Positions 11,301 through 28,215 of a stretch of 64,000 nucleotides of DNA are shown in pieces (position 1 is the first letter of the stretch; each line of letters opens with the position of its first letter). Both the position numbers and the translations under genes were made by a program. This DNA is from an uncultured Candidatus Saccharibacteria bacterium (GTDB lineage Bacteria; Patescibacteriota; Saccharimonadia; Saccharimonadales; UBA4665). The notes beneath the pieces were generated by a model that was not told where the DNA came from, did no database searches, and saw only the letters and a program-made list of their open reading frames with translations. Location of the stretch: NCBI GenBank assembly GCA_964357905.1, contig CAYHMQ010000003.1:26855-90854 (forward strand). The letters are read 5' to 3'.

Positions 11301-12416
11301 ATGTACGAATTCTCGTCTGAAGCCCCGATCCAGATGCGTGAGCAGCGCTATAGCCGCCTCTTTGACGGCGAATTAATGTACATTAACCCAAGTCAGGCTC
11401 AGGTGGACCTAGGTATGAGCGCTCTTGCTAGAACTACTAATCGCGCTGGTGCGCGTCCGCCAGAATTAAGCGAACACCTGGAGACACTGCCACTAATCAT
11501 TGATAATATTTTAGAGAGGCATGACCTTGATGCTTTTGGCTGGCCTCCCTACGAATTGGATGGCGGCTCCGCAAATGCACTCTTCGGTTTTGTAAGTCCA
11601 GAGGGTCAGGAAATTGTTACTGGCATCGTAGCCGATATATTTAGACAGTGGGAAATTACTCGAAGTCGTCATGGTTTACAGCCATTAGCAACTGAGGGCG
11701 ATAGTGATGCGCGCTGGCTGGTAGTTGAAACAGCCGCTGCCGTTATGTATTGTGCGGCCAATTCATCAAACTTCAACTTGATTAAGAACCGTTCTGACAG
11801 AGAGAGTATAGCAAAGATCATAACTTGCTGGGGGCCTAAGTTCGCCGAAAAGTGGTTCGATGGCACCATATTGAGTAACTGGGCAGCTCAAAATAACATG
11901 ACAGAAGAAGAACTTGAACATTGGCGCGCAACTTTTAGCCCATCGACCCTCAAACATCTTGCCGACACTAACACGAGCGACCCATTGGGTGCGCTGGAAA
12001 AAATTAAGCACCATCTCGAAGTCACCTTAACCGACCAAAATATTGCCAAACATTTGGGCTGGAGCCGGACTCAAGTGTCAGAGACATTTAGCGCCAGCGA
12101 AAGAATGAAGTTTGCAGTACACAATCGAGCCAACCCGATAGGCGCCCTCAAACAAGTCAAGGATCACTTAGAAATGACCCTCACGGATGAGAGTTTAGCT
12201 CAATACCTGGGTTGGGAAGAGGCTAAGGTCAGGCAAGTTTTTACAGCTTACACTCGTAAATGCTTGGCAATCTCATACCGTAACGATCCTCTGAGTGCCT
12301 GCAAAGCCTGGGCGAGTGGCAAAATTAAGATAACTGCTACAAACGATTCGACGCGGGACAACAAGCTGTCGGGCAACGGTTATACCAAATTAGACGATTA
12401 TATGGTTGCGGTCTAG
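11301..12416 (+). CDS. hypothetical protein with tandem 51-aa helix-turn-helix-like repeats
   Basis: 371-aa ORF in a divergent orientation to rpoB. The C-terminal half carries two full repeats and one partial repeat. No family recognised. Confidence 0.7.
11979..12350 (+). repeat. in-frame 153-nt (51-aa) tandem repeat, two full units plus a partial third
   Basis: Unit 1 is [37 protein letters not shown] and unit 2 is [37 protein letters not shown]. Unit 3 starts [10 protein letters not shown]. Units start at 11979, 12132 and 12285. Confidence 0.8.
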
Positions 12417-13009
12417 GTCTGCTTGGGCGGGCTGTTGATAACGTCGTCGACAATGCCGTACTTCTTGGCGTCTTCGGCGGTTAGCCACTTGTCACGTTCC
12501 ATGTCTTCATGGATCTTCTTGACCGTTTGGCCGGTGTTTTTGGCCATGATTTCTTCGAGTAGCTTCTTGACTCTTAGGCTTTCGCGCAAATCGATTTCCT
12601 GGTCGGTAACCTTGCCGTGGGTGCCAGATGAGGGTTGGTGAATCATGACTGTCGAGTTAGGCAGCGTAAAGCGCTTGCCCTTGGTGCCACTGCTGAGCAA
12701 GAAGGCGGCGGCGGAAGCTTGTACGCCAATGCCGACCGTCTGGATATCATTGCCGACATACTGCATAGTGTCATAAATGGCCAGGGCGTCATAAACACTG
12801 CCGCCAGGACTATTAATGTAGAAAAAGATATCCTTCTTGGCATCCTCAGCCTGCAAGAACAGCAACTGCGCAACAACTATGTTCGCACTGGCCACGTTGA
12901 CGTCGCTGCCCAGGAAGATAATTCGGTCCTTGAGCAAACGGCTATAGATGTCATAAGCTCGCTCGTAACGGCCTTCGCTCTCGATAACGGTTGGGATTAG
13001 TACACTCAT
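12413..13009 (-). CDS. clpP: ATP-dependent Clp protease proteolytic subunit
   Basis: 198-aa ORF containing YINSPGGSV, the catalytic Ser context [11 protein letters not shown], and MIHQPS. Confidence 0.95.
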
Positions 13010-13016
13010 GGGGTTC

Positions 13017-13045
13017 AGTATAAGAAATTAGCACTCTCTAGTCAA
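13017..13045 (-). promoter_or_regulatory. clpP promoter TTGACT-17-TATACT, with the -10 ending 7 nt before the ATG (leaderless type)
   Basis: The minus strand reads TTGACTAGAGAGTGCTAATTTCTTATACTGAACCCCATG. No SD is present. Confidence 0.55.
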
Positions 13046-13054
13046 GAGTGCTAA
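13028..13054 (-). promoter_or_regulatory. CIRCE inverted repeat (HrcA-type operator), perfect match
   Basis: TTAGCACTC-TCTAGTCAA-GAGTGCTAA matches the consensus TTAGCACTC-N9-GAGTGCTAA. The -35 hexamer sits in the 9-nt spacer. The element also overlaps the last codons of the upstream ORF. Confidence 0.8.
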
Positions 13055-13936
13055 AAAGCCGCTTCTAGCGTGCCTGGTTCTGTCTTCTGGACTCATGACC
13101 ATCCGTCTAGAGTACCCGCCATTCATACCAGTAATGAAAGATACGTCGCCGTAACCGGCGTATATTTTACCGGTAGGTATCCACCCGTCGTCCGCAATAC
13201 AGCCCCCGTCGTCCGGCGCAAGAGAGATATCCCACACATAGGTTTTCCTATCAATAACGCCTGTAGTCTCTGGCTCAGGGTTGGTGCTACGCCATCGACT
13301 TGCTAGTACTGCCCCTGCAAATAGGTCTGCCGGCCACACATAAGGATGCTCTTTCCTAACCATGTCGAGAGCTTCAAGTTGGAATACGACTTTGTTTGGA
13401 TCAAAATTTCTCTCGTCCCTCAGCCTTGGCCCCACTCGATTCACATCATACCCTGTTTCCATTGCCACGAAACGGACTGGCCTTTCAGGATGTTCCGAGC
13501 TGAACTGACATAGCAGTCTTGGATCCCATTGTCTGAGGTCTCTCCAAAAATTTCTTTCCATATAACGATATGGTCTTTTTTCTCTTTTGGGACCAGCGTA
13601 ATCCCAAGCCCCTACAACTTCTTCATGGGTCAAATCGTAGTGAGGCACAGCCTGCAGAATCACAGGATCCGCATCTGTTGAGTATAACCCTGCGTTGATG
13701 GCCTCTATTACGCCTTTGCTCTCATCAATCCATTCTTCTGCCATGTCAGGCAACTTACCCTCAGGAACTATTGCGAGTTCACTTCCTTCAGACTCAGAGC
13801 GACCGGCTATGATGTTTTCGGCAATTCCGGTGTATAATCCAGCCGTTTCAGCTTCTATCGTTGATAGGAGCATGTCCTTTGTGACGATAGATTGTTCGCC
13901 GGATGTTCGACTAGGAGACGTTCCAAAACTACCCAT
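13028..13936 (-). CDS. hypothetical protein (orphan)
   Basis: The open frame runs to 13981 (317 aa). The ATG at 13936 (MGSFG..., 302 aa) has TATTAT 7 nt upstream, whereas 13981 has no promoter or SD. No family recognised. Confidence 0.6.
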   Translation of the reverse strand: MGSFGTSPSRTSGEQSIVTKDMLLSTIEAETAGLYTGIAENIIAGRSESEGSELAIVPEGKLPDMAEEWIDESKGVIEAINAGLYSTDADPVILQAVPHYDLTHEEVVGAWDYAGPKREKRPYRYMERNFWRDLRQWDPRLLCQFSSEHPERPVRFVAMETGYDVNRVGPRLRDERNFDPNKVVFQLEALDMVRKEHPYVWPADLFAGAVLASRWRSTNPEPETTGVIDRKTYVWDISLAPDDGGCIADDGWIPTGKIYAGYGDVSFITGMNGGYSRRMVMSPEDRTRHARSGFLALLTREC

Positions 13937-13992
13937 AGCCACAATAATACTGTGCTCGCATGAAATTGCAAAACTAGCCATAGCGCCAAAAA

Positions 13993-14030: not shown

Positions 14031-15233
14031 ATGATCTCAGTAGAAGATGCTGAAAAACTCGTACTATCCCAATCTAGAGATTATGGGGTCGATAATATCC
14101 CGCTTGGCGAAGCGCTAGGTAGAATACTGGCTGAGCCGGTTATTGCCGACAGAGATTTTCCTCCTGCTAACAGAGCCACTATGGACGGGGTGGCTATAAA
14201 TTATCGTAGCTTCTCCAAAGGCCAGCGGATGTTTAGTGTCAAGGCTGTGCAGCCGGCAGGCAACAAGACTGTATCAATTAGTAAACCAGATCAGTGCATC
14301 GAGATAATGACAGGGGCAATACTGGACAACACGGTTGACACAGTCATACGTATTGAGGATGTTGATTTAAGGAATGGTCATGCTCTTATTACCACAGATA
14401 ATATTACGAGGGGTCAGTTTATTCACCGTCGCGGAGTTGACAAAAAACGTGGCGATCAAGTCGCAACTGCAGGCAGCGCTATTACGCCAACAACGATAGC
14501 CGTGTTAGCTAGCGCAGGCTATTCCTCAGTTAAAGTCAGAAAACTTCCTGACATTATCATCATGACCACAGGAGATGAACTTGTTGGGATAGATCAAAAG
14601 CCACGTGATTATCAACTTAGGCGATCCAATGACTGGGCAATAAGGTCAGTACTAGAAAGTTTGATGATAAAAACCGATACTCTGCATTTACCCGACAACG
14701 AGCAAATAATAAGGCAAGCCATCAGCGAATCATTGAAGAAATATGATGTTGTTTTACTTAGTGGCGGCGTATCCAAAGGAAAATACGACTATGTACAATC
14801 ATGTCTGGATAGTTTAGCCGTTAAGAAGATCTTTCACGGCGTCAGCCAGCGACCAGGCAAACCATTTTGGTTTGGTGTTTCCGGCAGCAAACTTGTATTC
14901 GCCTTTCCGGGTAATCCAGTTTCTTCGTTATTGTGTCTTTACCGATATTTTGTGCCTTGGTTAACTAAATCCCTTGGCGAGATGAACAAACAGCAAGTCA
15001 ATGCAATCTTGGACGAGTCTCTGCCGTCTAATGAACTTCTTACTCAGTTTGTGCCGGCAAACTTATCAATTGACGAATTCGGCCAGCTCTGCGCCGCACC
15101 AATCGCCAACAATGGCTCGGGTGATTTCATTAGCCTAGTCAAAGCCGACGCCTTCGTAGAGCTTCCCCCAAGTAAATCCATAAACCAAAAGGGTAGTCCG
15201 TACCGAGCCTGGCCGTTCGAACACATTGCCTAG
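14031..15233 (+). CDS. moeA: molybdopterin molybdenumtransferase
   Basis: 400-aa ORF with MoeA-type motifs TMDGVAI, GGVSKGKYDY and FPGNPVSS. Confidence 0.9.
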   Translation: MISVEDAEKLVLSQSRDYGVDNIPLGEALGRILAEPVIADRDFPPANRATMDGVAINYRSFSKGQRMFSVKAVQPAGNKTVSISKPDQCIEIMTGAILDNTVDTVIRIEDVDLRNGHALITTDNITRGQFIHRRGVDKKRGDQVATAGSAITPTTIAVLASAGYSSVKVRKLPDIIIMTTGDELVGIDQKPRDYQLRRSNDWAIRSVLESLMIKTDTLHLPDNEQIIRQAISESLKKYDVVLLSGGVSKGKYDYVQSCLDSLAVKKIFHGVSQRPGKPFWFGVSGSKLVFAFPGNPVSSLLCLYRYFVPWLTKSLGEMNKQQVNAILDESLPSNELLTQFVPANLSIDEFGQLCAAPIANNGSGDFISLVKADAFVELPPSKSINQKGSPYRAWPFEHIA

Positions 15234-15279
15234 TGTTTTGGACGCGCCTTAATCTTTCGAGCGTACTATAATAATAAGT

Positions 15280-15888
15280 ATGAGTGCCCGCCAAACCAGC
15301 AAGCCCAGTCTTTACGGCTTGGTGCTGGCCGGCGGCAAAAGTCGGCGCCTGGGCCATGACAAAGGCCTGATCGAGTGGCTCGGCAAACCTCAGCGCTACT
15401 ATCTGGCTGACTTGCTGGCTAGACATTGTGACGGCGCATATATTTCCTGTCGACCAGACCAAGTTGGGCAGATCGAACAATACGAGGCAATTTCTGATAT
15501 TTATCCTGATCTCGGCTCGTACGGCGCGTTATTGTCGGCCATGAGCCATTATCCGGATAAAAGTTGGCTGGTGGTAGCCTGCGACATGCCTTTCGTCGAC
15601 GATGACGCGATCGACAATCTCATCAAGCAGCGCGACGCTCAAAAACTGGCAACCGCCTACTTCAACCCCGAAAACGGCTTGCCGGAACCAATGTTGGCTA
15701 TCTGGGAGCCGACGGCCTTTGATAGGCTAGTCAGACTATCTAAGGCTGGACTTGACTGCCCGCGTAAGGCATTGATTAAGTTTGGCGACGAGGCAAACCT
15801 CGTTCGGCCACACCGTGCGGAGACAATTATCAATATTAACACGCCTGCTGATAAGGCGGCGGCCGAGGAAGCGTTGGCAAGCAAATGA
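15280..15888 (+). CDS. mobA: MobA-like molybdenum cofactor nucleotidyltransferase
   Basis: 202-aa ORF with the N-terminal motif LVLAGGKSRRLGHDKGL. TATAAT lies 7 nt upstream of the ATG. Confidence 0.8.
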   Translation: MSARQTSKPSLYGLVLAGGKSRRLGHDKGLIEWLGKPQRYYLADLLARHCDGAYISCRPDQVGQIEQYEAISDIYPDLGSYGALLSAMSHYPDKSWLVVACDMPFVDDDAIDNLIKQRDAQKLATAYFNPENGLPEPMLAIWEPTAFDRLVRLSKAGLDCPRKALIKFGDEANLVRPHRAETIININTPADKAAAEEALASK

Positions 15889-16928
15889 ACATGGCAGAAC
15901 GTTATAGCTGTCAGTTGCCCTTGGACGGATTCGGGTCGGCGGCTCAGCAAAAGTTGTCCAAGGCCAAAGTTCTGATAGTCGGTGTCGGGGGGCTGGGCTG
16001 TCCGGCTGGTCTGTACCTGACAGCTATGGGCATTGGCACTCTGGGCATAGCCGATTTTGACAAAGTCAACAAAAAGAATTTGCATCGGCAGGTGCTCTAC
16101 GGTGATTCCGATGTGGGCGAGCTAAAAGCCAAGGTCGCTTCAAAGCGCCTTGAGCGACAAAACCCTGCCACCAGGGTGATAGCACACACCGAAAAAGTCA
16201 CAGACCAGAACGTCATGGAGCTACTAAGCCAGTACGATGTTGTCATGGATTGTACGGACAATTTCGACACCAGATATCTGCTTAACGACGCTTGCGTGAT
16301 GGCAGGCAAGCCATTGGTCTACGGCGCTATCTTCCAGTACGAGGGTCAAGCTGCCGCCTGGAACGTTAAGAATTCCGACGGATCAATGTCGCCTAACTAT
16401 CGTGATGTATTTCCGTCCGCTGACGATAGCCAAATCCCCAACTGTGCGGATGGTGGCGTTATTCCGACTATTGCAGGCATAATCGGTTGCGTTCAGGCTA
16501 ATGAGGTCATCAAGTACATAGCCGGTATTGATGATTTACTGAGTGGCAAATTATTTATCTTTGATGCTAAAACCATGAACAGTTACATAACCAAGTTGCC
16601 GCATTCCAGTGGGGTCAGTATTAAGTCCTTGCCCGCCCAGCCACAAATCCCCCAAATCCCTGCCAAGGAGCTAAAATCCGCAATCGATAAAAATATCTAC
16701 GAGCTAATCGACGTACGCACACCCGAGGAGCATTCGGCTCGCAATATCGGCGGCAAAAATATTCCTCTCGACAGGCTCGACGAGCGACTGGACGAAGTCG
16801 ACTTCGCGAGACCCGTGGTGTTTTACTGCGCCTCAGGTGCGCGCAGTTCGGCAGCCGTCAAAAGCACCATGACAACGCATCCCGAAGCCACGATGATGTC
16901 GCTGAGCGGCGGAATTAACGCTTGGTAG
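15885..16928 (+). CDS. moeB: MoeB/ThiF-type adenylyltransferase fused to a C-terminal rhodanese domain (MoeZ-like)
   Basis: Contains the nucleotide-binding loop VLIVGVGGLGCP and the C-terminal rhodanese loop FYCASGARS. ATGA overlap with the mobA stop. Confidence 0.88.
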   Translation: MNMAERYSCQLPLDGFGSAAQQKLSKAKVLIVGVGGLGCPAGLYLTAMGIGTLGIADFDKVNKKNLHRQVLYGDSDVGELKAKVASKRLERQNPATRVIAHTEKVTDQNVMELLSQYDVVMDCTDNFDTRYLLNDACVMAGKPLVYGAIFQYEGQAAAWNVKNSDGSMSPNYRDVFPSADDSQIPNCADGGVIPTIAGIIGCVQANEVIKYIAGIDDLLSGKLFIFDAKTMNSYITKLPHSSGVSIKSLPAQPQIPQIPAKELKSAIDKNIYELIDVRTPEEHSARNIGGKNIPLDRLDERLDEVDFARPVVFYCASGARSSAAVKSTMTTHPEATMMSLSGGINAW

Positions 16929-16970
16929 ATTCTTGATGGACGTTTGGCAATATGAGTCAGCCCTTCAGAC

Positions 16971-17390
16971 CTATGGATGAGCTGAAACCCACTCTTCACC
17001 GCCCTCGAAAACTTCTTTTTTCCAGATTGGTACAGTTGTCTTGAGAGTATTGATGACGTACTGGCAGGCCTCTATGGCGTCTCTGCGATGCGAGGCTGAC
17101 ACGGCAATGATAACTGGTATTTCACCGGCGTCCACCTTGCCTTCGCGGTGATGAACTAGTAGTTTGTCTATGTTCCAACTTTTTATGGCGGTGTTAGTGA
17201 TTTTTTCCAGCTCTTTTTGAGCCATGTTGCTATAAACTTCGAACTCAAGGTATCTGACAACCCGCTCATTGGCACTAGGCCGGACACGGCCGATAAATAT
17301 GTTAACGCAACCGCTGTTGCCCGAGGCAGCCCAAGCCATAGCTGCTTTAATATCTAGGTTGTTTTTGGTGATTTGTATGTCCACGGGCAT
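16971..17390 (-). CDS. moaE: molybdopterin synthase catalytic subunit
   Basis: 139-aa ORF containing HHREGKV, IAVSASHRRDA and PIWKKE. GAGG lies 7 nt upstream and the gene is coupled to moaD. Confidence 0.88.
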   Translation of the reverse strand: MPVDIQITKNNLDIKAAMAWAASGNSGCVNIFIGRVRPSANERVVRYLEFEVYSNMAQKELEKITNTAIKSWNIDKLLVHHREGKVDAGEIPVIIAVSASHRRDAIEACQYVINTLKTTVPIWKKEVFEGGEEWVSAHP

Positions 17391-17397
17391 ATTAACC

Positions 17398-17631
17398 TCA
17401 ACCGCCGTTGGTGGGGGGTATTATGGCTATCTCGTCGCGCCGACGGATAATTTGATCGTCTTGGGCGTACTCAGCGTTTATGGCCAGCATGAACTCGGGT
17501 AGTGCCGAGTATTTTGTCTTGAGCATGGCGCGCAAATCGTCGGCAGAAGAACCGTCATCGAGATTCAGCTCGACAGTTCTGTGCCCCAAGATATCCTTGG
17601 CAATTCCAAAGGCCAGTATTTTTACAATCAT
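17398..17631 (-). CDS. moaD: molybdopterin synthase sulfur-carrier subunit (ThiS/MoaD fold)
   Basis: 77 aa counted from the ATG at 17631 (MIVKILAFG...), ending in GG. The longer tracked ORF (start 17700) would overlap the upstream transporter gene. Confidence 0.8.
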   Translation of the reverse strand: MIVKILAFGIAKDILGHRTVELNLDDGSSADDLRAMLKTKYSALPEFMLAINAEYAQDDQIIRRRDEIAIIPPTNGG

Positions 17632-17641
17632 ATCAGCCTGT

Positions 17642-17650
17642 ATTGTAACA
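17642..17650 (-). promoter_or_regulatory. candidate extended -10 promoter (TGTTACAAT) 10 nt upstream of the moaD ATG
   Basis: Read directly in the 25-nt gap after the transporter stop. No SD is present. Confidence 0.4.
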
Positions 17651-17656
17651 CTTGGG

Positions 17657-18850
17657 TCAGGCGAGTTTGATACGCTTGAAACGACGTGAGATATACACAA
17701 ACACCAGCGCCGCCGCCAGCGATAAGCCTAGCAGAGCTAAGGAATAAGAGCGTGTTCTTTGATAAGTCACGCCCAATATCAGGGGCGGCAAAAACCCGCC
17801 TAGCCCACCGCAAGCCCCGACAATACCGGTCACGCTGCCGATGGAGTCGGGCTTGGAGAGCTTGCTAACTAGAGCTATGATCGCGCCATTGCCACAACCC
17901 AATACGAAGGCTAAGCTCAGATAGGCGACCGTAGTTGCCGGTGCCAAGCTTGGCTGTAAGGCAACGAAGGCCGACAACACGGCGATACCCGCGAATACCG
18001 TTCTAATAACCCTTGCGCCGCCGACGTGATCACTCAGCCAGCCGCCGACGGGACGGGCGGCCGTAGCCAGCAACACGAAACCAGCTGCCCGCGCTGCCGC
18101 GTCGGTCAAAGACAAGCCGTATGAGACCTTGAGAAGCACGGGCAGATAGACCCCGAACGCAACAAAAGCACCAAAGCTTATGGAGTACAACAACGCAAGA
18201 TCCCATGTGTTATGGCTACTCATAGCCTTGGTTAGCCTAGCTATGGCCGAGCCTTTAGCCCTTTTCCAAGTTGGTGAGTCATGACCCCAAAGCATGAAGG
18301 CCACGCCAATTAACAACAGAGCTGCCGCGGCCGTGATGTAGGCTGTTTGCCGGTCAAAAGCGGTAGCTAGACTAGGTGTTAGAAATCCAGAAACAGCCGT
18401 ACCGGCGTTACCCATACTGTAAATACCCAAGACTAAGCCTCTTTTTTGTGGCGGAAACCAAGCGTTAACGTATGGTACGCCGACGGCGAAAGACGCGCCG
18501 GCAATTCCCAGGAACGCGCCGGCAACCAGGAACGCGTTATACGAGTCAACAAAAGCTAGCGCCATCACGGGTAGGATCGCTAAAAAACACACCGCTGTAA
18601 AAACCCTATGTCCGCCGAAGCGGTCGGTCAGCACGCCGAACGGAATTCTTGCCAGTGATCCAACCAACACCGGTACAGCCAACATAACAGATAGCCCGAC
18701 TGGACTTAGCGACAAATCAGCGGCGAACTTCGACCCTAGCGGTCCGAGCAACGACCACGCCCAGAAGTTAATTGTCAGCGCCGCGGTCGCCAGCGCCAGC
18801 GCGAAGACCGGAGAAGTTTTGGTAGCTTGTTTTTTGTTTTTGCTGGCCAC
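17657..18850 (-). CDS. MFS transporter, nitrate/nitrite porter (NarK/NNP)-like
   Basis: About 12 hydrophobic segments. Contains RIPFGVLTDRFGGHR, GIYSMGNAGTAVSGFLTP and GIVGACGGLGGFLPP. I prefer the GTG at 18850, 1 nt after the upstream TAG. The ATG at 18919 would overlap the upstream gene by 68 nt. Confidence 0.75.
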   Translation of the reverse strand: MASKNKKQATKTSPVFALALATAALTINFWAWSLLGPLGSKFAADLSLSPVGLSVMLAVPVLVGSLARIPFGVLTDRFGGHRVFTAVCFLAILPVMALAFVDSYNAFLVAGAFLGIAGASFAVGVPYVNAWFPPQKRGLVLGIYSMGNAGTAVSGFLTPSLATAFDRQTAYITAAAALLLIGVAFMLWGHDSPTWKRAKGSAIARLTKAMSSHNTWDLALLYSISFGAFVAFGVYLPVLLKVSYGLSLTDAAARAAGFVLLATAARPVGGWLSDHVGGARVIRTVFAGIAVLSAFVALQPSLAPATTVAYLSLAFVLGCGNGAIIALVSKLSKPDSIGSVTGIVGACGGLGGFLPPLILGVTYQRTRSYSLALLGLSLAAALVFVYISRRFKRIKLA

Positions 18851-18851
18851 T

Positions 18852-20348
18852 CTAGATCGACGCCTCCCAATCGAAGAACACCGTATCTTCACGGTAGCCG
18901 CCCCTGCCCTGCCCAACATTGTCGAACCGGTCTACAAACTCTATAGACTTCAGGTATTTGGCCATTTTGTAGCCATATTTCTTCTCGCAGCGCAAACGCA
19001 GTGGCGCGCCATACTGCGTCGGCAGTTTTTTGCCATTCATTTCATATGCCAAGATAGTCTGATCATCAAACATATCGCTCAGCCTCAAGCCCGAGTAATA
19101 GTAGGCGCCTTGCGGGTCAACATCGTGACAATGGAACAGCACGTACTTGGCACCCTCCTTGGGCTTACACAACTCAATAATATCGGTCATTTTCACCCCG
19201 CCCCATTCAGCGACAGCTGTCCAACCTTGGATGCAGTTATGCTTGGTAATTTGCTCCTGCTTAGGCATGTTATGTAGATCCTCGAGTGTCAGTTCGACAG
19301 GGTTTTCGACCATACCATGGATCTTAAGCGTCCAGTCCTTGTATCCGCCAGCTTGCAGCCTTTCGTACTCCTCAGTTTTGGGCGGGTAGCCATTGGCACG
19401 AAAAAATGGCGAGATGTCTTCCTTGGCGTACCTCTGTCTGGAGTTCATCCAGCCAAAAAAGAAGCGTACTATCGGCGCGTAAAACTTGGTTAATAGCTTA
19501 CGCAATCTGACCTGGTCGCCAAGCGTGAAGAAGGTAATCCAAACATTGAAGGCCGCGATCAATACGATAATTGCCAAGAACATTGTCAGCGCCAGACCAA
19601 AGTTTACATCCGTACTGCCGACAGTAAACTTCTTAACGCTGTCGTAGAAGTGAACAAGCATAGCCATTGTCACATGAACCAATATGAAGAGCGAGAACAC
19701 GACCATGCCAATAAAGTGTAGACTACGAGCAACTTGTCGCTTGTTGCCAAAAAGCTTCAAAAACCCCGGGAAACGTGCCACCAGCGCCGGAGACATAGCC
19801 AAGCCAGTTATTACCATCGAAGGTGCCAGCACAAACACAACAAACGCATAGGTCAACTGCTGCAGAGCATTGTGCGGATTAGACAGCGTATCAGCCGGCA
19901 GGTTTAGCGTCAGATAGCCGACAAAGACGTCAATTGCCCGCGAGAAAATTCCCCAATCAGTTGGAATTAGCCGCTGCCACTGACCCGAGCTGAACAAATA
20001 ACCAAGGTAAATCATGCCTGTGGTCAGCCAGGCTATAGCGGCCGTAAAATGCCAGTGCCTACCCGAACCTAGATTGTGTGTGCCGCCTGGCAAAGATAAC
20101 GGCCCAGCGTCCTCGGCCTCGTCAAGCGAAGTCCAGAGCCTATCTTTGGGCATTATCTTCTTACCGAAGCGCAGCCAGTGATTATCGTCAGCGGTGTCAT
20201 CTGTCCAATATAGCTTGGGGTGATCATAAAGGATTTGTATACCGCTCCTGATCAAAATAATCAGACAAAATAAATTTATAAGATGAGCGACAACTATCAG
20301 TACAGGGATGCTCGTGCCGTCCATTTTTTGTGACGCCTCCGTATACAT
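18852..20348 (-). CDS. fusion protein: N-terminal cytochrome-b561-like membrane domain and C-terminal sulfite-oxidase/YedY(MsrP)-fold molybdopterin oxidoreductase domain
   Basis: 498 aa with five hydrophobic helices. His residues sit in helices 1 and 2, and twice in helix 4 (HFIGMVVFSLFILVH). The C-terminal domain has KHNCIQGWTAVAEWGG (Cys Mo ligand context) and YGAPLRLRCEKKYGYKMAKYLKSIEF. Confidence 0.75.
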   Translation of the reverse strand: MYTEASQKMDGTSIPVLIVVAHLINLFCLIILIRSGIQILYDHPKLYWTDDTADDNHWLRFGKKIMPKDRLWTSLDEAEDAGPLSLPGGTHNLGSGRHWHFTAAIAWLTTGMIYLGYLFSSGQWQRLIPTDWGIFSRAIDVFVGYLTLNLPADTLSNPHNALQQLTYAFVVFVLAPSMVITGLAMSPALVARFPGFLKLFGNKRQVARSLHFIGMVVFSLFILVHVTMAMLVHFYDSVKKFTVGSTDVNFGLALTMFLAIIVLIAAFNVWITFFTLGDQVRLRKLLTKFYAPIVRFFFGWMNSRQRYAKEDISPFFRANGYPPKTEEYERLQAGGYKDWTLKIHGMVENPVELTLEDLHNMPKQEQITKHNCIQGWTAVAEWGGVKMTDIIELCKPKEGAKYVLFHCHDVDPQGAYYYSGLRLSDMFDDQTILAYEMNGKKLPTQYGAPLRLRCEKKYGYKMAKYLKSIEFVDRFDNVGQGRGGYREDTVFFDWEASI

Positions 20349-20449
20349 TACGGTTATGTTTTGCTACCAACTGGCATTATAGCAAAGAAGCGAATCCGCA
20401 CTGTGATTTCGCGCACACTCGTACACCGGTCAAGCAATAAGACAGTGGC

Positions 20450-21733
20450 TTACTTGCTGGCGTAGCCGCGGAGTTTGTCGAGAGTCTTCTCAGTTAGCAT
20501 GCGGCTCATGATGTCGCGGTGGTTTTCGGGCTTGTCGAGCTCGGCCTGCATAGCTGGATCAGCGTATTGACCTCTAAGTAGTTGAATGCGCAGTTCTAGT
20601 TCCTGGGGCGTCACGGTGACTTTTTCGTGAGATGATATTTCGCCTAGCACTAGGCCGGCTTTGACACGTAGCTCGGCATTAGGACGTTGCTTCTCGCGGT
20701 GAGCGTCGGCGTCTATACCTTCTTCGTCTAGGTGCTCTTGCCAAGTTTGGCCGCGATAGATGATATTACGTCTCTCTTCTTCTTCCATGCGATCGATTTC
20801 TTCATCGACCAGCACTTTTGGTATATCTACGCTACTCTTGGCAGCGATTTTTTCCAGTAGTTCGTTATCGTAGGTGCTTTGAGCCTGTTGCTGCTTCTCG
20901 GCAGTCAATTGCTTCTTAATATCAGACTTCAGCTCGGCCAGAGTCTTAAATGGCCCGATCGTGGCCGCAAAAGCGTCGTCTAGCTTGGCTAGCTTGAGCT
21001 CTTGGACCTTGCTGACCTTAACCTCGAAGTTAACCTTGCGGTTCTGCAGCTCAGTTGAGCCATAATCCTTGGGGAAAGTTATACTAAATGTCTTGTCGTC
21101 ACCCGCCTTGAGGCCAACCAGCTCATCTTCAAAGCCAGGTATAAAACTCTTGCTGCCAAGCACCAGCGGATAGTCCTTACCGTCAGCACCGCTTATAGGC
21201 TCCTTGGTCTTGTCATCAGTGCCCTTGAAGTCAATTGTCGCTTCGTCGCCCAGCTTGGCAGCTCGATCTACCTCAGACTTGGTAGCACCGCGACTACGCA
21301 GGTTATCGACGACACCGTTGACATCGTCGGCCGTGGCGCTGACCTTGGGCAGCTCAAGCTTGATCTTCTTATAATCCGGTAGCTGAACTGTGCCGACGAT
21401 CTCTACTTCGGCCGTGAATTCCATGGTCGAGAACGGTACAAACTTAGTCAGATTAATGTTCGGCTGGGCAACAGGCCTTAGCTTTTCACTCTCGACGGCG
21501 TGAACGTAAAAACGATTAACTGCCTGGTCGAGGAATTCTGATTGCAGGGCCGCTTGGTCAATATTCTTCTCGATTAGGTTGGCCGGCGCTTTGCCGGGAC
21601 GAAAGCCAGCGACTTTAACATTTTGGCTTAAATGGCTCAGGACTTCCTGCTTGAGCACATCCATAGCTGCCTGGTCGGCAACAACGGTTAGCTTGATGGA
21701 GGTAGGTGATAATTGTTCGCGTGTTATCTGCAT
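20450..21733 (-). CDS. tig: trigger factor
   Basis: 427-aa ORF with an N-terminal ribosome-binding region containing GFRPGKAP and a central FKBP-like segment. Confidence 0.92.
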   Translation of the reverse strand: MQITREQLSPTSIKLTVVADQAAMDVLKQEVLSHLSQNVKVAGFRPGKAPANLIEKNIDQAALQSEFLDQAVNRFYVHAVESEKLRPVAQPNINLTKFVPFSTMEFTAEVEIVGTVQLPDYKKIKLELPKVSATADDVNGVVDNLRSRGATKSEVDRAAKLGDEATIDFKGTDDKTKEPISGADGKDYPLVLGSKSFIPGFEDELVGLKAGDDKTFSITFPKDYGSTELQNRKVNFEVKVSKVQELKLAKLDDAFAATIGPFKTLAELKSDIKKQLTAEKQQQAQSTYDNELLEKIAAKSSVDIPKVLVDEEIDRMEEEERRNIIYRGQTWQEHLDEEGIDADAHREKQRPNAELRVKAGLVLGEISSHEKVTVTPQELELRIQLLRGQYADPAMQAELDKPENHRDIMSRMLTEKTLDKLRGYASK

Positions 21734-21888: not shown

Positions 21889-22347
21889 TCAGTAGCGCAA
21901 GAACTGTACTATTAAGATAATCATGGCTATCAGCCAAGTAACCTCGACGACAGCACCGATTGGGCGTCCGAACCATTGAATGCCGATGGCAAACTTGAAG
22001 TAGCCCTTGGCGCGCCATGATTGGCCGCGTCGAGTTTTGATATATCTATCAATCGACAGCAAATCGGGTGAGGCTGCCACAAAGGCACAAATAGCCGCTA
22101 ACAACCAATAAACGGGCTGCAAAATCGCTAGAGTTAGCACTATGCCAAAGCATATGGCTGCTTCGGCCATGAGATAGCGCTGATAGCCTTTGGTTTTGAG
22201 CAATACCTCGTCGGGCAGCAGGCTCCCGTAATGCGGCAGCGCGTCACAGACGAAGTGCGATGCCAAGGCTGCGGGTAACGCTATCAGTGGCTGCCCAGTT
22301 GCTAGCCCAATCAAAGTCCCAGTTAGGGCATGATTAACAGCGGTCAT
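21889..22347 (-). CDS. small membrane protein, possibly YdjM/DUF457-like metal-dependent hydrolase
   Basis: 152 aa and hydrophobic, with an N-terminal HALTG...HFVCDALPHYG pattern. ATGA overlap with the hisS stop. Confidence 0.45.
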   Translation of the reverse strand: MTAVNHALTGTLIGLATGQPLIALPAALASHFVCDALPHYGSLLPDEVLLKTKGYQRYLMAEAAICFGIVLTLAILQPVYWLLAAICAFVAASPDLLSIDRYIKTRRGQSWRAKGYFKFAIGIQWFGRPIGAVVEVTWLIAMIILIVQFLRY

Positions 22348-26173: not shown

Positions 26174-26758
26174 TCAAGCCTGGCGCTTCAAGAAACGGAT
26201 AAGGCTCGAGGCACCAAGCGTTAAGCTATACATAATCGCATAGCCATGCCGCAAGGCTGGCAAACGTTTCTCGGCGACGGTCGGTATGACTGTAGCTTCA
26301 TATGGTACGGTTCGGTCATCTGGTGAATATAGCGATAGCATCTTAGCTTTGTCGGCTGCCGATAGCTTGGGTAGGTTGGGTTGCAGAGCATATAACGCAG
26401 TTTTGAAGGCTGGGTTAGCAGCATAGGTCTTGGAACTGACTGTCTCTGGGGCATTGATTTTGGCACAAATATACACCAGTCCGGTGATGTCGTTAGATCG
26501 CTCGACATAAGCATTTAGAACCGCACTGGCGCCGGCGCTGGCGCCCACCAAGGAGACACGGTAGCCTTTAGCGATATATTTATCAATTCGCTCCAGCAAT
26601 CGCTGAAACTTGGACTCGTAAGCCTCTTCGCCAGCCCATGGCATCGGATGACAGTGACCCCTGACTCCATACAAGCGCCACAACCAGGTCGCCAAGCTCT
26701 GGACACGATATGCGTCATCTTGAATTCCAGGGATATAAATGACATGGTGTTGTGACAT
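26174..26758 (-). CDS. alpha/beta-hydrolase-fold protein
   Basis: Contains the nucleophile elbow LVGASAGAS. I chose the ATG at 26758 (MSQHHVIYIPG) because the longer ORF would run into the tRNA. Confidence 0.6.
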   Translation of the reverse strand: MSQHHVIYIPGIQDDAYRVQSLATWLWRLYGVRGHCHPMPWAGEEAYESKFQRLLERIDKYIAKGYRVSLVGASAGASAVLNAYVERSNDITGLVYICAKINAPETVSSKTYAANPAFKTALYALQPNLPKLSAADKAKMLSLYSPDDRTVPYEATVIPTVAEKRLPALRHGYAIMYSLTLGASSLIRFLKRQA

Positions 26759-26776
26759 TGAAATACTGCTTCTGAT

Positions 26777-26862
26777 TGGTGCGGATGAGAGGACTTGAAC
26801 CTCCACGCCCTAGGGGCACTAGTTCCTAAGACTAGCGTGTCTACCAATTCCACCACATCCGC
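26777..26862 (-). tRNA. tRNA-Leu (anticodon UAG), CCA encoded
   Basis: 86 nt: GCGGATG acceptor stem, anticodon stem CTAGT/ACTAG, loop CTTAGGA, long variable arm, TTCAAGT T-loop, CATCCGC-A-CCA. Confidence 0.93.
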
Positions 26863-26884: not shown

Positions 26885-27418
26885 CTAGCGAATTTTTTGA
26901 TAAAAAACCAGCTGCGAGTCGCCGTAACTTTTGGATTGAACAGTTTGCAAATCCGCCAAAATCGGCAAGCGCACATTAGTCGGCCACGACAAAACGAAGG
27001 TGCCGGTCGCTGCCAGATGCCTGGGCAGCTTCTCAAGGTCACGATATGGAATGTTATCGTAGGGCGGGTCAGCAAAGATCAGATCAAACTTTAGGGCTTG
27101 ATGGCGAGTTGACCAGGCGCCGACAAATGCTCGCGTTACCTTAAGCCTATCTGTAATGCCTAGAGCCTCGGCGTTGGCAACGATTACGCCGTGAGCCGTC
27201 TTGTCGACCTCCACGGCGATGGCGCTTTTGGCGCCGCGGCTGATGGCTTCGTACGCTAGTGCACCGCTACCAGCGAAGGCGTCAAGCACAGTTAGGCCTT
27301 TGATGTCGCCCAGGACACCAAATATCGCACCGCGCATCTTGTCACTCATCGGGTGAGTACGATGACCGCCCGGACTACTGAAGTTGCGACCGCCAAGCCA
27401 GCCAGCTATAACTCTCAT
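26885..27418 (-). CDS. rsmD: 16S rRNA (guanine966-N2)-methyltransferase
   Basis: 177 aa containing LDAFAGSGALAYEAISRGA and DPPY. Confidence 0.85.
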   Translation of the reverse strand: MRVIAGWLGGRNFSSPGGHRTHPMSDKMRGAIFGVLGDIKGLTVLDAFAGSGALAYEAISRGAKSAIAVEVDKTAHGVIVANAEALGITDRLKVTRAFVGAWSTRHQALKFDLIFADPPYDNIPYRDLEKLPRHLAATGTFVLSWPTNVRLPILADLQTVQSKSYGDSQLVFYQKIR

Positions 27419-28215
27419 GCCTCCAGCTTACCAGCCTCATGACAAGCCGCATACCACGCTAGGGTAATCATTCGTACCATACGCGGGGCTAGCTCCTTGC
27501 GTACATCGCGAGTAACTGACCGCGTCCAGCCTAGCTCAATAAACCGTCCGTATAGTTCAAGTTCTGCAACCTCACTCATTAATCGCTTGAACGTATCGAT
27601 AACACCTTTGTTAGCTATACGTTCTAGATCAGCCCGAGACGGCAAAGCCTTATTAAATCGTAGCGGCGCAATGATAGCATAGGCGCCGGCTTCAAACATG
27701 GCATGGGTGGTCAGTAGACCTTTTGGCCCGGCTAGTTTGAGGCTATGCAGTACCGATTTGGTGATTGTCTCTTGCTTAACGAATACCCGACCAGCCAAGC
27801 CTTTACGTGTATGCCTAGGTTCGCCACCGCGCAGGCTAGCCAAGGCTGACTCGTACGGGTAATGATGAGCCGGGGTCAAGCCATCGACCAGAGCATGCGC
27901 CAGCCAGGCAGCTTCGAAGCTGGCTCGCACTTCATCGTTATCACGCAGAGCTTTGACCAGACTGTTATAGTGCTGCTCTATTTGCTTATATAAGTCTGTG
28001 TCATTCGGATTGTGCGGATCAATGAAGTGCCATGGCTGCTCGCTCCTGTTGTGACGCTTTAGCTTGGCGCTATCGGGACCGCGGCCGGCTTCAAACCGCA
28101 GCACTTGTCTGATCGAAGGAAAACAACTCTGGTCATGCGCCGGCAACAGACGTCTCAGATGTCTATGCGCAACTCTATCGAGCTTCTGGTGGGCATGAAA
28201 AACTATTGCGTACAT
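27415..28215 (-). CDS. hypothetical protein, possibly of the zinc phospholipase C / P1 nuclease-like superfamily
   Basis: 266 aa and His-rich. The segment AWLAHALVDGLTPAHH resembles the metal-binding helix of that superfamily. The call is weak. Confidence 0.35.
   Translation of the reverse strand: MYAIVFHAHQKLDRVAHRHLRRLLPAHDQSCFPSIRQVLRFEAGRGPDSAKLKRHNRSEQPWHFIDPHNPNDTDLYKQIEQHYNSLVKALRDNDEVRASFEAAWLAHALVDGLTPAHHYPYESALASLRGGEPRHTRKGLAGRVFVKQETITKSVLHSLKLAGPKGLLTTHAMFEAGAYAIIAPLRFNKALPSRADLERIANKGVIDTFKRLMSEVAELELYGRFIELGWTRSVTRDVRKELAPRMVRMITLAWYAACHEAGKLEA

What the first reader, a model, noticed from the sequence alone, without database searches (positions are those of the whole stretch)
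17657..20348. Cytochrome-b / sulfite-oxidase-fold fusion enzyme coupled to a NarK-type transporter
Seen: one 498-aa protein joins two domains.
- The N-terminal part is a five-helix domain with His residues in helices 1 and 2 and twice in helix 4. This is a b561/HyaC-like arrangement for two hemes.
- The C-terminal part is a YedY/MsrP/sulfite-oxidase-type Moco domain (KHNCIQGWTAVAEWGG; YGAPLRLR...YGYKMAKYLKSIEF).

Its TAG is followed 1 nt later by the GTG of an MFS protein carrying nitrate/nitrite-porter signatures, and then by moaD-moaE.

Known: bacterial nitrate reductases are bis-MGD enzymes. Sulfite-oxidase-fold nitrate reductase is a eukaryotic invention. MsrP is a soluble, Tat-exported protein that partners a separate membrane heme protein, MsrQ.

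Inference: this is a self-contained, membrane-anchored heme-Moco redox module with a dedicated anion transporter. The substrate is unknown; candidates are nitrate/nitrite, sulfite and sulfoxides.

Basic residues follow helix 3 (FLKLFGNKRQVAR) and helix 5 (RLRKLLTK). This suggests the Moco domain may face the cytoplasm, which would fit substrate import by the transporter. The topology is not certain from the sequence alone.
Basis: partly seen in the sequence, partly recalled or inferred. Interest (0 to 1): 0.7.

Follow-up and report, generated by a model that had tools for sequence, protein, structure and literature searches.

The report
Inward-facing heme-molybdenum reductase with nitrite/nitrate transporter
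A tiny parasitic bacterium (Saccharibacteria), thought to lack respiration, carries a mobile gene cassette for a one-protein membrane enzyme (two hemes plus a molybdenum site that probably faces the cell interior), tightly coupled to a nitrate/nitrite transporter, which looks like a previously undescribed, minimal way to reduce nitrate.

Summary
One gene on the minus strand (18852-20324; 490 aa from the likely start) fuses an FdnI/HyaC-type di-heme cytochrome b (PF01292) to a YedY/MsrP-like sulfite-oxidase-fold Moco domain (PF00174). All four heme-ligand His and the Mo-ligand Cys are conserved. Its TAG is followed after 1 nt by the GTG of a NarK-family transporter, then by moaD-moaE. moeB-mobA-moeA lie convergent.

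The organism is a Saccharibacterium.

New findings:
- The family lacks the twin-arginine motif of the known fused heme-Moco proteins (Sco3746 type).
- Its charge bias is the opposite of theirs, its TM5 is strongly hydrophobic, and it has Gln where they have Glu next to the Mo-Cys.
- In closely related genomes with the same operon and synteny, NarK is replaced by an HPP-family protein. The only tested HPP member transports nitrite.
- More distant relatives, in soil metagenomes and in Corynebacterium, stand alone.

Best reading: an inward-facing quinol-dependent reductase acting on nitrate (or nitrite), working like a one-polypeptide NarGHI. The substrate is inferred, not shown. I rate it a new variant of a known kind. 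It is of high interest because CPR bacteria are thought to lack respiratory chains.

The parts
18852..20324 (-). Fusion enzyme gene (490 aa from Met9; the ORF extends to an upstream ATG at 20348). The product is a di-heme cytochrome b joined to a SUOX-fold Moco domain.
19455..20324 (-). N-terminal membrane domain, residues 1-290. It has five TM helices: an FdnI/HyaC-like four-helix di-heme core plus TM5. His14 is at 20283-85, His92 at 20049-51, His203 at 19716-18 and His217 at 19674-76. An NxxQ quinone-site-like motif lies before TM3.
   Evidence: PF01292 at E 3e-20. Alignment to E. coli FdnI and HyaC. Hydropathy profile. Conservation. Coordinates.
18855..19442 (-). C-terminal Moco domain, residues 295-490, of the YedY/MsrP-like SUOX fold and with no dimerisation domain. 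The Mo-ligand Cys364 is at 19233-35. The family-specific Gln366 is at 19227-29.
   Evidence: PF00174 at E 3e-38. YedY 1xdq at E 2e-17, with Cys102 aligned. Foldseek match to YedY at E 1e-11. Gln versus Glu split.
17657..18850 (-). NarK-family (NNP) MFS transporter of 397 aa. Its GTG start lies 1 nt after the TAG of the enzyme gene.
   Evidence: TIGR00886 at E 2e-63. The only PDB hits are NarK and NarU, and the substrate residues are conserved. Junction sequence. Adjacency is conserved in 24 loci.
17398..17631 (-). moaD (molybdopterin synthase sulfur carrier, ending in GG).
16971..17390 (-). moaE (molybdopterin synthase catalytic subunit).
15885..16928 (+). moeB/moeZ-like adenylyltransferase with a C-terminal rhodanese domain.
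15280..15888 (+). MobA-like nucleotidyltransferase (NTP_transf_3).
14031..15233 (+). moeA (molybdenum insertase).
20376..20417 (-). Tentative promoter. It has a TATAAT box (20376-20381) and a CRP/FNR-type palindrome TGTGCGCGAAATCACA (20402-20417) centred about 41 nt upstream of the inferred transcription start.
   Evidence: A similar box is present in only 3 of 36 related loci, so this part is weak.

Best explanation
The gene encodes a single-polypeptide membrane oxidoreductase. Its parts are an FdnI/HyaC-type four-helix di-heme cytochrome b, a fifth helix, and a small YedY-like Mo-molybdopterin domain.

It is inserted in the opposite orientation to FdnI and to the known Tat-dependent heme-Moco fusions. 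The N-terminus is outside and the Moco domain is in the cytoplasm.

Proposed mechanism:
1. A quinol is oxidised at the conserved quinone-site-like pocket near the outer heme (His14/His217), releasing protons outside.
2. Electrons cross the membrane through the two hemes to the inner heme (His92/His203).
3. They pass to the Mo centre (Cys364), which reduces an N-oxyanion using cytoplasmic protons. This is the logic of NarGHI compressed into 490 residues.
4. The translationally coupled NarK-type transporter brings nitrate in and takes nitrite out. In sister genomes an HPP-family protein (a family with a nitrite-transporting member) takes its place.
5. The co-located moaD, moaE, moeB, moeA and mobA genes supply the cofactor.

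The seven genes behave as a mobile cassette in Saccharibacteria.

Shown: the domain architecture, the ligand residues, the operon structure, the distribution and the transporter swap.
Inferred from sequence statistics: the topology.
Inferred from context: quinol as the donor, and nitrate-to-nitrite as the reaction.
For: Architecture and ligands.

Topology:
- There is no twin-arginine motif before TM5 in 121 Saccharibacterial homologues or in the distant ones. Ten of 100 locus-encoded relatives do have an RR in that loop, but it lies about 20 residues before TM5.
- TM5 is strongly hydrophobic, with a score of 2.49.
- K+R counts in the 15-residue flanks are 8-25 on the Moco side against 2-18 on the N-tail side, and the Moco side is richer in 98 of 101 homologues.
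- E. coli FdnI shows the opposite bias.
- Sister fusions P0172 and P0135 carry classical Tat motifs (GRRRVIFAG, TRRNFFVR). They have a weakly hydrophobic TM5 and the opposite bias, 17 and 15 against 7 and 8.
- Among the 150 best representatives, the 59 with Gln at Cys+2 show no classical Tat signal; where RR occurs it is mostly in the basic stretch after TM5. Of the 25 with Glu, 16 have an RR upstream, several within classical Tat signals.
- Extra N-terminal helices with an Arg-rich N-side in P0127, P0130 and P0291 fit an N-out core.

Quinone link:
- The NxxQ motif of the FdnI quinone site is conserved.
- A VKOR gene lies directly upstream in 6 loci.

N-oxyanion link:
- The NarK-like gene sits at a 1-nt spacing, and the pairing recurs in 24 loci.
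- The NarK substrate-binding residues are conserved.
- Within one syntenic context (DHFR, hyp205, enzyme, X, moaD, moaE, moeB-mobA-moeA, thyA), X is a NarK-like MFS in L115 and L117, and an HPP family protein (PF04982) in L108/L109 and L116.
- An HPP protein has nitrite transport activity (Maeda 2014, as cited in PMC7438415).
- A Crp-family regulator is adjacent in 7 loci.

Ecology: Saccharibacteria made up 35-45% of reads in partial-denitrification reactors that accumulate nitrite (PMC9063028).
Against: - No activity data exist for any member of the family.
- The nearest characterised relative, MsrP/YedY, reduces sulfoxides, not nitrate.
- Most of the family has no transporter neighbour at all. 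This includes soil relatives at 41-52% identity, Corynebacterium, and several Saccharibacterial subclades. Nitrate may therefore be a lineage-specific use, or not the substrate.
- HPP is known only for nitrite. An HPP-only cassette leaves nitrate import unexplained.
- Saccharibacteria are not known to make quinones.
- Fre/FNR-like flavoprotein genes lie next to the enzyme gene in 5 loci. They suggest a cytoplasmic electron donor, which would make more sense for an outward-facing enzyme.
- The topology rests on prediction only.
- A MobA gene in the cassette is not explained by a Mo-MPT enzyme.
Confidence: 0.45

Rival explanations
1. The enzyme is inward-facing but acts on nitrite rather than nitrate. 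One version is one-electron reduction of nitrite to NO, a side activity known for sulfite oxidase, mARC and plant nitrate reductase. Another is a different way of disposing of nitrite. In either case the transporter imports nitrite.
For: Nitrite is the substrate shared by NarK-type and HPP-type transporters. In L029 the gene cluster includes reductase modules resembling the reductase domain of the NO-inducible flavohemoprotein Hmp.
Against: Producing NO in the cytoplasm of a minimal cell with no visible NO reductase would be harmful. The NarK residues are equally compatible with nitrate. The ecological correlation is with nitrite accumulation, not nitrite consumption.
Confidence: 0.15
2. It is a general cytoplasmic, quinol-driven reductase for sulfoxides or N-oxides, such as free or protein-bound methionine sulfoxide, biotin sulfoxide or hydroxylamines. 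This would be an inward-facing counterpart of MsrPQ. On this view the link to nitrate/nitrite transporters in some Saccharibacteria is secondary.
For: The closest characterised family is MsrP/YedY. Most family members stand alone without a transporter, which fits membrane-permeant or endogenous substrates.
Against: The MsrP score is half the family cut-off (103 against 207 bits). The residue two positions after the Mo-Cys is Gln in every member, where MsrP and the Tat-type relatives have Glu. The 1-nt coupling to NarK and the in-situ swap to HPP are hard to explain as coincidence.
Confidence: 0.17
3. It is an outward-facing, MsrPQ-like fusion of the Sco3746 type. The Moco domain lies outside the membrane, and electrons come from the cytoplasm (a Fre-like flavoprotein) or from quinol. 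The neighbouring transporter is unrelated.
For: All characterised PF01292 proteins have the N-terminus inside. Known heme-Moco fusions are outward-facing. Basic residues after the last helix are also a feature of those proteins. Fre-like genes are neighbours in 5 loci.
Against: There is no Tat motif, although Moco proteins are folded and loaded in the cytoplasm. TM5 is strongly hydrophobic. The charge bias is the opposite of that in genuine Tat-type sisters and FdnI, analysed in the same way.
Confidence: 0.07
4. It is a sulfite dehydrogenase. It oxidises cytoplasmic sulfite and passes the electrons through the hemes to quinone.
For: The fold is the sulfite-oxidase fold. SorA, SoxC and SorT models give weak matches.
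Against: Scores for the sulfite dehydrogenase models are far below their cut-offs (62 bits against a cut-off of 600 for SorA) and lower than the MsrP score. There is no dimerisation domain. The transporters point to N-oxyanions, not S-oxyanions.
Confidence: 0.04

Closest known systems
Sco3746-type polytopic heme-Moco proteins (dual Sec/Tat substrates; Tooke et al. 2017, PMC5449189).
   Same: Five TM helices, predicted di-heme b, a C-terminal SUOX-fold Moco domain and basic residues after TM5. P0172 and P0135 have the same two Pfam domains, PF01292 and PF00174.
   Different: - Those proteins have a twin-arginine motif directly before a weakly hydrophobic TM5.
- They have an Arg/Lys-rich N-tail and Glu at Cys+2, and the Moco domain is exported.
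- The window protein has no RR, a strongly hydrophobic TM5, the inverted charge bias and Gln at Cys+2.
MsrP/MsrQ (YedY/YedZ) of E. coli
   Same: A YedY-like Moco domain, with 30% identity and Foldseek E 1e-11, wired to a membrane heme b protein. It is a reductase rather than an oxidase.
   Different: - MsrP is soluble, Tat-exported and periplasmic.
- Its partner MsrQ belongs to the ferric-reductase-domain family, not PF01292.
- MsrP has Glu104 where this family has Gln.
- The window protein scores 103 bits against the MsrP cut-off of 207.
Respiratory nitrate reductase NarGHI with NarK
   Same: The proposed logic is the same: a di-heme b subunit oxidises quinol at the outer face, the catalytic site is cytoplasmic, and a NarK antiporter is genetically linked.
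   Different: There is no homology. NarG is a bis-MGD enzyme with an FeS relay, and NarI belongs to a different heme b family (PF02665). Here there is one 490-aa polypeptide, Mo-MPT of the SUOX fold and no FeS clusters. This is a functional analogy only, and it is untested.
FdnI / HyaC (gamma subunits of formate dehydrogenase-N and hydrogenase-1)
   Same: The same four-helix fold. The four heme-ligand His residues are at equivalent positions, and the NxxQ quinone-site motif is present.
   Different: FdnI and HyaC have the N-terminus inside, and their quinone site is at the cytoplasmic face. Here the predicted orientation is reversed, and a fifth helix and a catalytic domain are fused on.
Eukaryotic assimilatory nitrate reductase
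   Same: A SUOX-fold Moco domain acting (here hypothetically) on nitrate, and partnered with an NRT2/NarK-family transporter (PMC6400420).
   Different: The eukaryotic enzyme is soluble and has a dimerisation domain, cytochrome b5 and an FAD/NADH domain. It arose within eukaryotes by gene fusion. The window protein has none of these extra domains and is closer to YedY than to nitrate reductase.

Membership tests
PF01292 prokaryotic cytochrome b561 / FdnI-HyaC di-heme cytochrome b | Profile match above the curated cut-off | tested here: met
   73.1 bits against a cut-off of 30.1.
PF01292 prokaryotic cytochrome b561 / FdnI-HyaC di-heme cytochrome b | Four bis-His heme ligands: one in TM1, one in TM2 and two in TM4 spaced 14 residues apart | tested here: met
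   His14, His92, His203 and His217 align with FdnI H18, H57, H155 and H169. They are conserved in 96-100% of homologues.
PF01292 prokaryotic cytochrome b561 / FdnI-HyaC di-heme cytochrome b | N-terminus and C-terminus of the four-helix core in the cytoplasm | tested here: not met
   The positive-inside bias is reversed relative to FdnI and to Tat-type sister proteins. This is a prediction only.
SUOX-fold Moco enzymes (PF00174) | Profile match and fold | tested here: met
   131.6 bits against a cut-off of 24. The AF2 model (pLDDT 81) matches YedY, SorA, SO and NR at E 1e-11 to 1e-8.
SUOX-fold Moco enzymes (PF00174) | Conserved Cys that ligates Mo | tested here: met
   Cys364 aligns with YedY Cys102. 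It is invariant in 121 close homologues and present in 96% of 100 diverse homologues.
SUOX-fold Moco enzymes (PF00174) | Bound Mo-molybdopterin | not testable with these tools
   The only support is genetic linkage to moaD, moaE, moeB and moeA.
MsrP (NCBIfam NF003767 equivalog) | Score at or above the equivalog cut-off | tested here: not met
   103.3 bits against a cut-off of 207.
MsrP (NCBIfam NF003767 equivalog) | N-terminal Tat signal and a periplasmic location | tested here: not met
   There is no Tat signal, and the domain follows five TM helices.
MsrP (NCBIfam NF003767 equivalog) | C-V-E-[AG]-W active-site motif (Glu104) | tested here: not met
   The motif here is C-I-Q-G-W. Gln is found in all 59 Q-type representatives and Glu in all 25 Tat-type or MsrP-like ones.
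Sco3746-type dual Sec/Tat heme-Moco proteins | Five TM domains followed by a C-terminal Moco domain | tested here: met
Sco3746-type dual Sec/Tat heme-Moco proteins | [quoted passage not shown] | tested here: not met
   The sequence here is SVKKFTVG. No RR motif is conserved in the family. The defining feature is taken from PMC5449189.
Sco3746-type dual Sec/Tat heme-Moco proteins | [quoted passage not shown] | tested here: not met
   The Kyte-Doolittle mean is 2.49 here, against 1.93 and 1.51 in the Tat-type proteins P0172 and P0135.
NarK / NNP family (TIGR00886), for the neighbouring transporter | Profile score at or above the curated cut-off | tested here: not met
   214.6 bits against a cut-off of 311.7. 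It is still the best family by 40 orders of magnitude in E-value.
NarK / NNP family (TIGR00886), for the neighbouring transporter | Substrate-site residues of E. coli NarK (R89, R305, F49, F147, N175, Y263, F267) and the Gly-rich nitrate signature motifs | tested here: met
   All seven residues align with identical residues, and S411 is replaced by Gly. The only PDB hits are NarK and NarU. The roles assigned to these residues come from my knowledge of the NarK structures.
NarK / NNP family (TIGR00886), for the neighbouring transporter | Nitrate/nitrite transport activity | not testable with these tools
   -
Eukaryotic-type nitrate reductase | Moco domain plus dimerisation domain, cytochrome b5 and an FAD/NAD(P)H domain | tested here: not met
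   Only PF00174 is present, and PF01292 takes the place of the other domains. The architecture of the eukaryotic enzyme is taken from PMC6400420.

The most novel reading that the evidence does not exclude
This is the first prokaryotic nitrate reductase built on the sulfite-oxidase fold. It would be a single 490-residue, quinol-oxidising, proton-motive 'mini-Nar' with no FeS clusters and no bis-MGD cofactor. It is carried on a mobile seven-gene cassette, and it would give supposedly non-respiring Saccharibacteria (CPR) an anaerobic electron sink that converts nitrate to nitrite. That would explain their blooms in partial-denitrification reactors.
Probability: 0.33. Interest if true: 0.9.

Novelty: new variant of a known kind. 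Interest (0 to 1): 0.72.

Why it matters
1. CPR/Patescibacteria are generally described as lacking electron transport chains. A self-sufficient cassette holding the enzyme, a transporter and cofactor synthesis genes would be a concrete, testable exception.

2. If the substrate is nitrate, this would be a fourth, structurally unrelated class of prokaryotic nitrate reductase, and by far the smallest membrane-bound one. That matters for nitrogen-cycle gene surveys, which would miss it. It also matters for wastewater processes that rely on nitrite accumulation.

3. The family is the mirror image of the Tat-dependent heme-Moco fusions. The two share the same domains, but they differ in membrane orientation, and the Tat motif, the charge bias, TM5 hydrophobicity and one active-site residue change together. 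This is a clean natural experiment in how the topology of a redox enzyme is flipped.

4. A homologue exists in cultivable Corynebacterium species, so the biochemistry can be done.

Tried and rejected
- Sco3746 family. I first expected the protein to belong to the published Sco3746 dual Sec/Tat family. I rejected this after finding no twin-arginine motif, a hydrophobic TM5 and an inverted charge bias. Genuine Tat-type sisters served as a positive control.
- Family-wide NarK pairing. I looked for it in 80 metagenome loci and found none outside the Saccharibacterial clade. There was also no other conserved neighbour.
- Shared CRP/FNR box upstream of the enzyme genes. A near-perfect box occurs in only 3 of 36 loci, so it is not a family feature.
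- N-terminal extensions of longer homologues. They have no Pfam domain, so they add nothing beyond the extra helix.
- The unannotated 317-aa ORF next to moeA in the window is unrelated to the unannotated ORF at the equivalent place in L004.
- Specificity-determining positions between the Gln-type and Glu-type Moco domains. Only the Gln/Glu and Ile/Val pair next to the Cys emerged, probably because many representatives are fragments.
- Literature searches for this enzyme in Saccharibacteria or for bacterial SUOX-fold nitrate reductases found nothing.
- Limits. The coordinates of the structure model could not be inspected, so no heme-to-Mo distances or pocket electrostatics were obtained.


Full report
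**What is there**

The minus strand of window 16971-20348 carries four tightly packed genes.

- The first ORF is 498 aa. All 120 closest database relatives start at its Met9, and a GGAGG lies 11 nt upstream of that ATG. I therefore take the product to be 490 aa, 18852-20324. All residue numbers below count from Met9.
- Pfam finds PF01292 (prokaryotic cytochrome b561, E 3e-20) over the first 230 residues, and PF00174 (molybdopterin-binding oxidoreductase domain, E 3e-38) over residues 329-466.
- The TAG stop is followed by one base and then the GTG of a 397-aa MFS protein, with a GGGAGG ribosome-binding site inside the end of the first gene.
- The best family for the MFS protein is the NarK nitrate/nitrite group, TIGR00886, at E 2e-63. 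The next family scores E 2e-23.
- moaD and moaE follow. On the other strand, converging on them, are moeA, a mobA-like gene and a moeB/moeZ-rhodanese gene.

**Organism and setting**

- All 24 genome loci recovered with the enzyme, and all named database hits, are Candidatus Saccharibacteria/Saccharimonadales.
- The rest of the window is housekeeping: fusA, rpsG, rpoC, rpoB, clpP, tig, hisS, recG, tyrS, radA, clpC, nusA, gatAB and others.
- The Moco cassette sits between clpP and tig, which are neighbours in many bacteria (my own knowledge).
- In other Saccharibacteria the same seven genes lie in a different chromosomal context, between DHFR and thyA. Elsewhere they lie in a different order between phage terminase genes and a serine recombinase. 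The cassette is therefore mobile.

**The heme domain**

- Hydropathy gives five membrane segments.
- Aligned with E. coli FdnI and HyaC, His14, His92, His203 and His217 fall on the four heme ligands (FdnI H18, H57, H155, H169). The 14-residue spacing in helix 4 matches, and so does the NxxQ motif before helix 3. In FdnI that motif lines the quinone pocket, according to my knowledge of structure 1KQF.
- The four His residues are invariant in 121 close homologues and present in 96-98% of 100 diverse ones.

**The Moco domain**

- The closest solved structure by sequence is E. coli YedY/MsrP (E 2e-17). Cys364 lies on the Mo ligand Cys102.
- An AlphaFold model (pLDDT 81, pTM 0.78) matches YedY best, followed by SorA, plant and animal sulfite oxidase and yeast nitrate reductase.
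- The domain is minimal, at about 195 residues with no dimerisation domain.
- It is not an MsrP orthologue: it scores 103 bits against a cut-off of 207.

**Topology**

Fused heme-Moco membrane proteins are already known. Tooke et al. (PMC5449189) showed that Sco3746 and its homologues have five helices, a twin-arginine motif directly before a weakly hydrophobic fifth helix, and basic residues after it. The Tat system exports their Moco domain.

I expected the window protein to be one of these. It is not.

- No twin-arginine motif is conserved before helix 5 in Saccharibacteria (SVK[KRLQ]ITLG and variants) or in distant full-length relatives, including those from Corynebacterium and Nocardioidaceae. 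Ten of 100 locus-encoded relatives have an RR in that loop, but it lies about 20 residues before helix 5.
- Helix 5 is strongly hydrophobic.
- Counting Lys+Arg in 15-residue flanks, the side that carries the Moco domain is the richer one in 98 of 101 homologues, with a mean of 12 against 4.8.
- FdnI, analysed the same way, shows the opposite bias.

The representative search also returned genuine Tat-type fusions with the same two Pfam domains (P0172, P0135, P0201). These carry GRRRVIFAG, TRRNFFVR and RRRFISAG before a weakly hydrophobic helix 5, and have Arg-rich N-tails. P0172 and P0135 show the opposite charge bias, 17 and 15 on the N-tail side against 7 and 8 on the Moco side.

One active-site residue tracks the split. 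Two positions after the Mo-Cys, all 59 representatives of the window's type have Gln. All 25 of the other type, including E. coli MsrP, have Glu.

Homologues with an extra N-terminal helix have the Arg-rich segment on its N-side. This also puts the start of the core outside.

This remains a prediction.

**What the transporter says**

- The MFS protein hits only NarK and NarU in the PDB. In that alignment NarK residues R89, R305, F49, F147, N175, Y263 and F267 are matched by identical residues. The roles of these residues come from my knowledge of the NarK structures.
- The enzyme-transporter pair recurs in 21 of the 22 genome loci that extend far enough downstream, and in three metagenome loci.
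- A neighbour-joining tree puts the window in a large clade where a transporter is always present.

The most informative result comes from one syntenic context: DHFR, a 205-aa unknown gene, the enzyme, X, moaD, moaE, then moeB-mobA-moeA and thyA.

- X is the NarK-like MFS in L115 and L117.
- X is a 164-170-aa HPP-family membrane protein (PF04982, with the HPP motif) in L108/L109 and L116.
- An HPP protein of cyanobacteria and chloroplasts has nitrite transport activity (Maeda 2014, cited in PMC7438415).

The in-situ replacement of one N-oxyanion transporter by an unrelated one argues that the enzyme's substrate or product is nitrite and/or nitrate, and that it has to cross the membrane. That fits a cytoplasmic active site.

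**Limits of that inference**

- The pairing is not a property of the whole family.
- Four other Saccharibacterial lineages have the enzyme gene alone.
- Seventy-odd soil metagenome relatives at 41-52% identity have no NarK-like neighbour and no conserved neighbour of any kind.
- Occasional neighbours in those loci are a PoxB-like pyruvate oxidase (6 loci), Fre/FNR-like flavoproteins (5) and a pyridine-nucleotide-disulfide oxidoreductase (5).
- In Saccharibacteria the recurrent extras are a His_Phos_1 gene (16 loci), a Crp-family regulator (7) and VKOR (6).

**Mechanism proposed**

- Quinol is oxidised at the outer face, next to the His14/His217 heme.
- Electrons cross to the His92/His203 heme and then to Mo.
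- An N-oxyanion, most simply nitrate, is reduced in the cytoplasm.
- NarK exchanges nitrate for nitrite.

This is the NarGHI-NarK logic carried out by unrelated and far smaller parts, and it would be electrogenic. The Gln-for-Glu change removes a negative charge next to Mo, which is reasonable for an anionic substrate; this point is inference.

There is circumstantial ecological support. Saccharibacteria reached 35-45% of reads in glucose-fed partial-denitrification reactors that accumulate nitrite (PMC9063028).

Points against:
- No member of the family has been assayed.
- The nearest characterised enzyme is a sulfoxide reductase.
- HPP is documented only for nitrite.
- Quinone supply in Saccharibacteria is unknown.
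- The Fre-like neighbours would suit an outward-facing enzyme better.

**Novelty**

- The fusion itself is known, and so are both domains.
- What I could not find described is the inward-facing, Tat-independent, Gln-type family, its cassette with Moco synthesis genes, and its coupling to nitrate/nitrite transporters in a CPR lineage.
- I rate it a new variant of a known kind.
- If the substrate proves to be nitrate, it would be a new class of prokaryotic nitrate reductase. SUOX-fold nitrate reductase is otherwise a eukaryotic invention made by gene fusion (PMC6400420).

Noticed in passing
window 14031-17631; L108, L115-L117, L004-type loci: The Moco cassette has moaD, moaE, moeB/moeZ-rhodanese, moeA and a MobA-like gene. 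It has no moaA, moaC, mogA/moaB or modABC nearby. MobA makes the guanine dinucleotide form of the cofactor, which no known SUOX-fold enzyme uses. Either these genomes hold other Mo enzymes and the early pathway genes elsewhere, or cPMP is obtained from the host.
   Followed up: partly
L029 4894-12526 (616-kb metagenome contig; enzyme 56% identical): The locus contains a Fre/Hmp-reductase-like flavoprotein, the fusion enzyme, a NarK-like MFS and a Crp-family regulator. It also has a stand-alone 204-aa SUOX-fold Moco protein whose gene overlaps that of a FAD_binding_6/NAD_binding_1 reductase. That last pair is a two-gene arrangement reminiscent of the Moco and NADH-reductase modules of eukaryotic nitrate reductase.
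   Followed up: partly
window 12413-13009 and 20450-21733: clpP and tig are adjacent in many bacteria. Here they are separated by the 7.3-kb Moco cassette plus an unannotated 317-aa ORF (13028-13981). In other Saccharibacteria the same cassette sits between DHFR and thyA, or next to phage terminase and serine recombinase genes. This indicates mobility.
   Followed up: partly
window 20402-20417 (-): A CRP/FNR-type palindrome, TGTGCGCGAAATCACA, is centred about 41 nt upstream of the inferred transcription start of the enzyme gene, next to a TATAAT box with no clear -35 element. Perfect TGTGA-N6-TCACA boxes also occur upstream of the enzyme gene in L018 and L029, but not in 33 other loci.
   Followed up: yes
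L002 10675-11406; L113 7434-8165; 16 loci in all: A histidine-phosphatase-superfamily gene (CobC/PGM-like) follows the transporter gene in 16 Saccharibacterial loci. In L113, which has no transporter, it directly follows the enzyme gene. It is absent from the window.
   Followed up: partly
L004 7259-7870 and five other loci: A VKOR (vitamin K epoxide reductase family) gene lies immediately upstream of the enzyme gene. This hints that these Saccharibacteria have a membrane quinone pool.
   Followed up: no
L108 9242-9865; L115 6319-6936; L116 6303-6929; L117 6315-6932: A soluble 205-208-aa protein with no Pfam match lies directly upstream of the enzyme gene, on the same strand, in the DHFR/thyA-context loci. 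It falls into two subgroups (28% identity between them) that track the NarK-type and HPP-type cassettes.
   Followed up: partly
window 11301-12416 (+), 21889-22347 (-), 26174-26806 (-), 27415-28215 (-), 37413-38426 (-), 44989-45951 (-), 59927-61108 (+): Several sizeable ORFs among the housekeeping genes have no Pfam family above the curated cut-off. The 371-aa ORF 11301-12416 gives only a sub-threshold Sigma70_r3 hit (24.1 bits against a cut-off of 25.3). The 152-aa ORF next to hisS looks like a small membrane protein.
   Followed up: no
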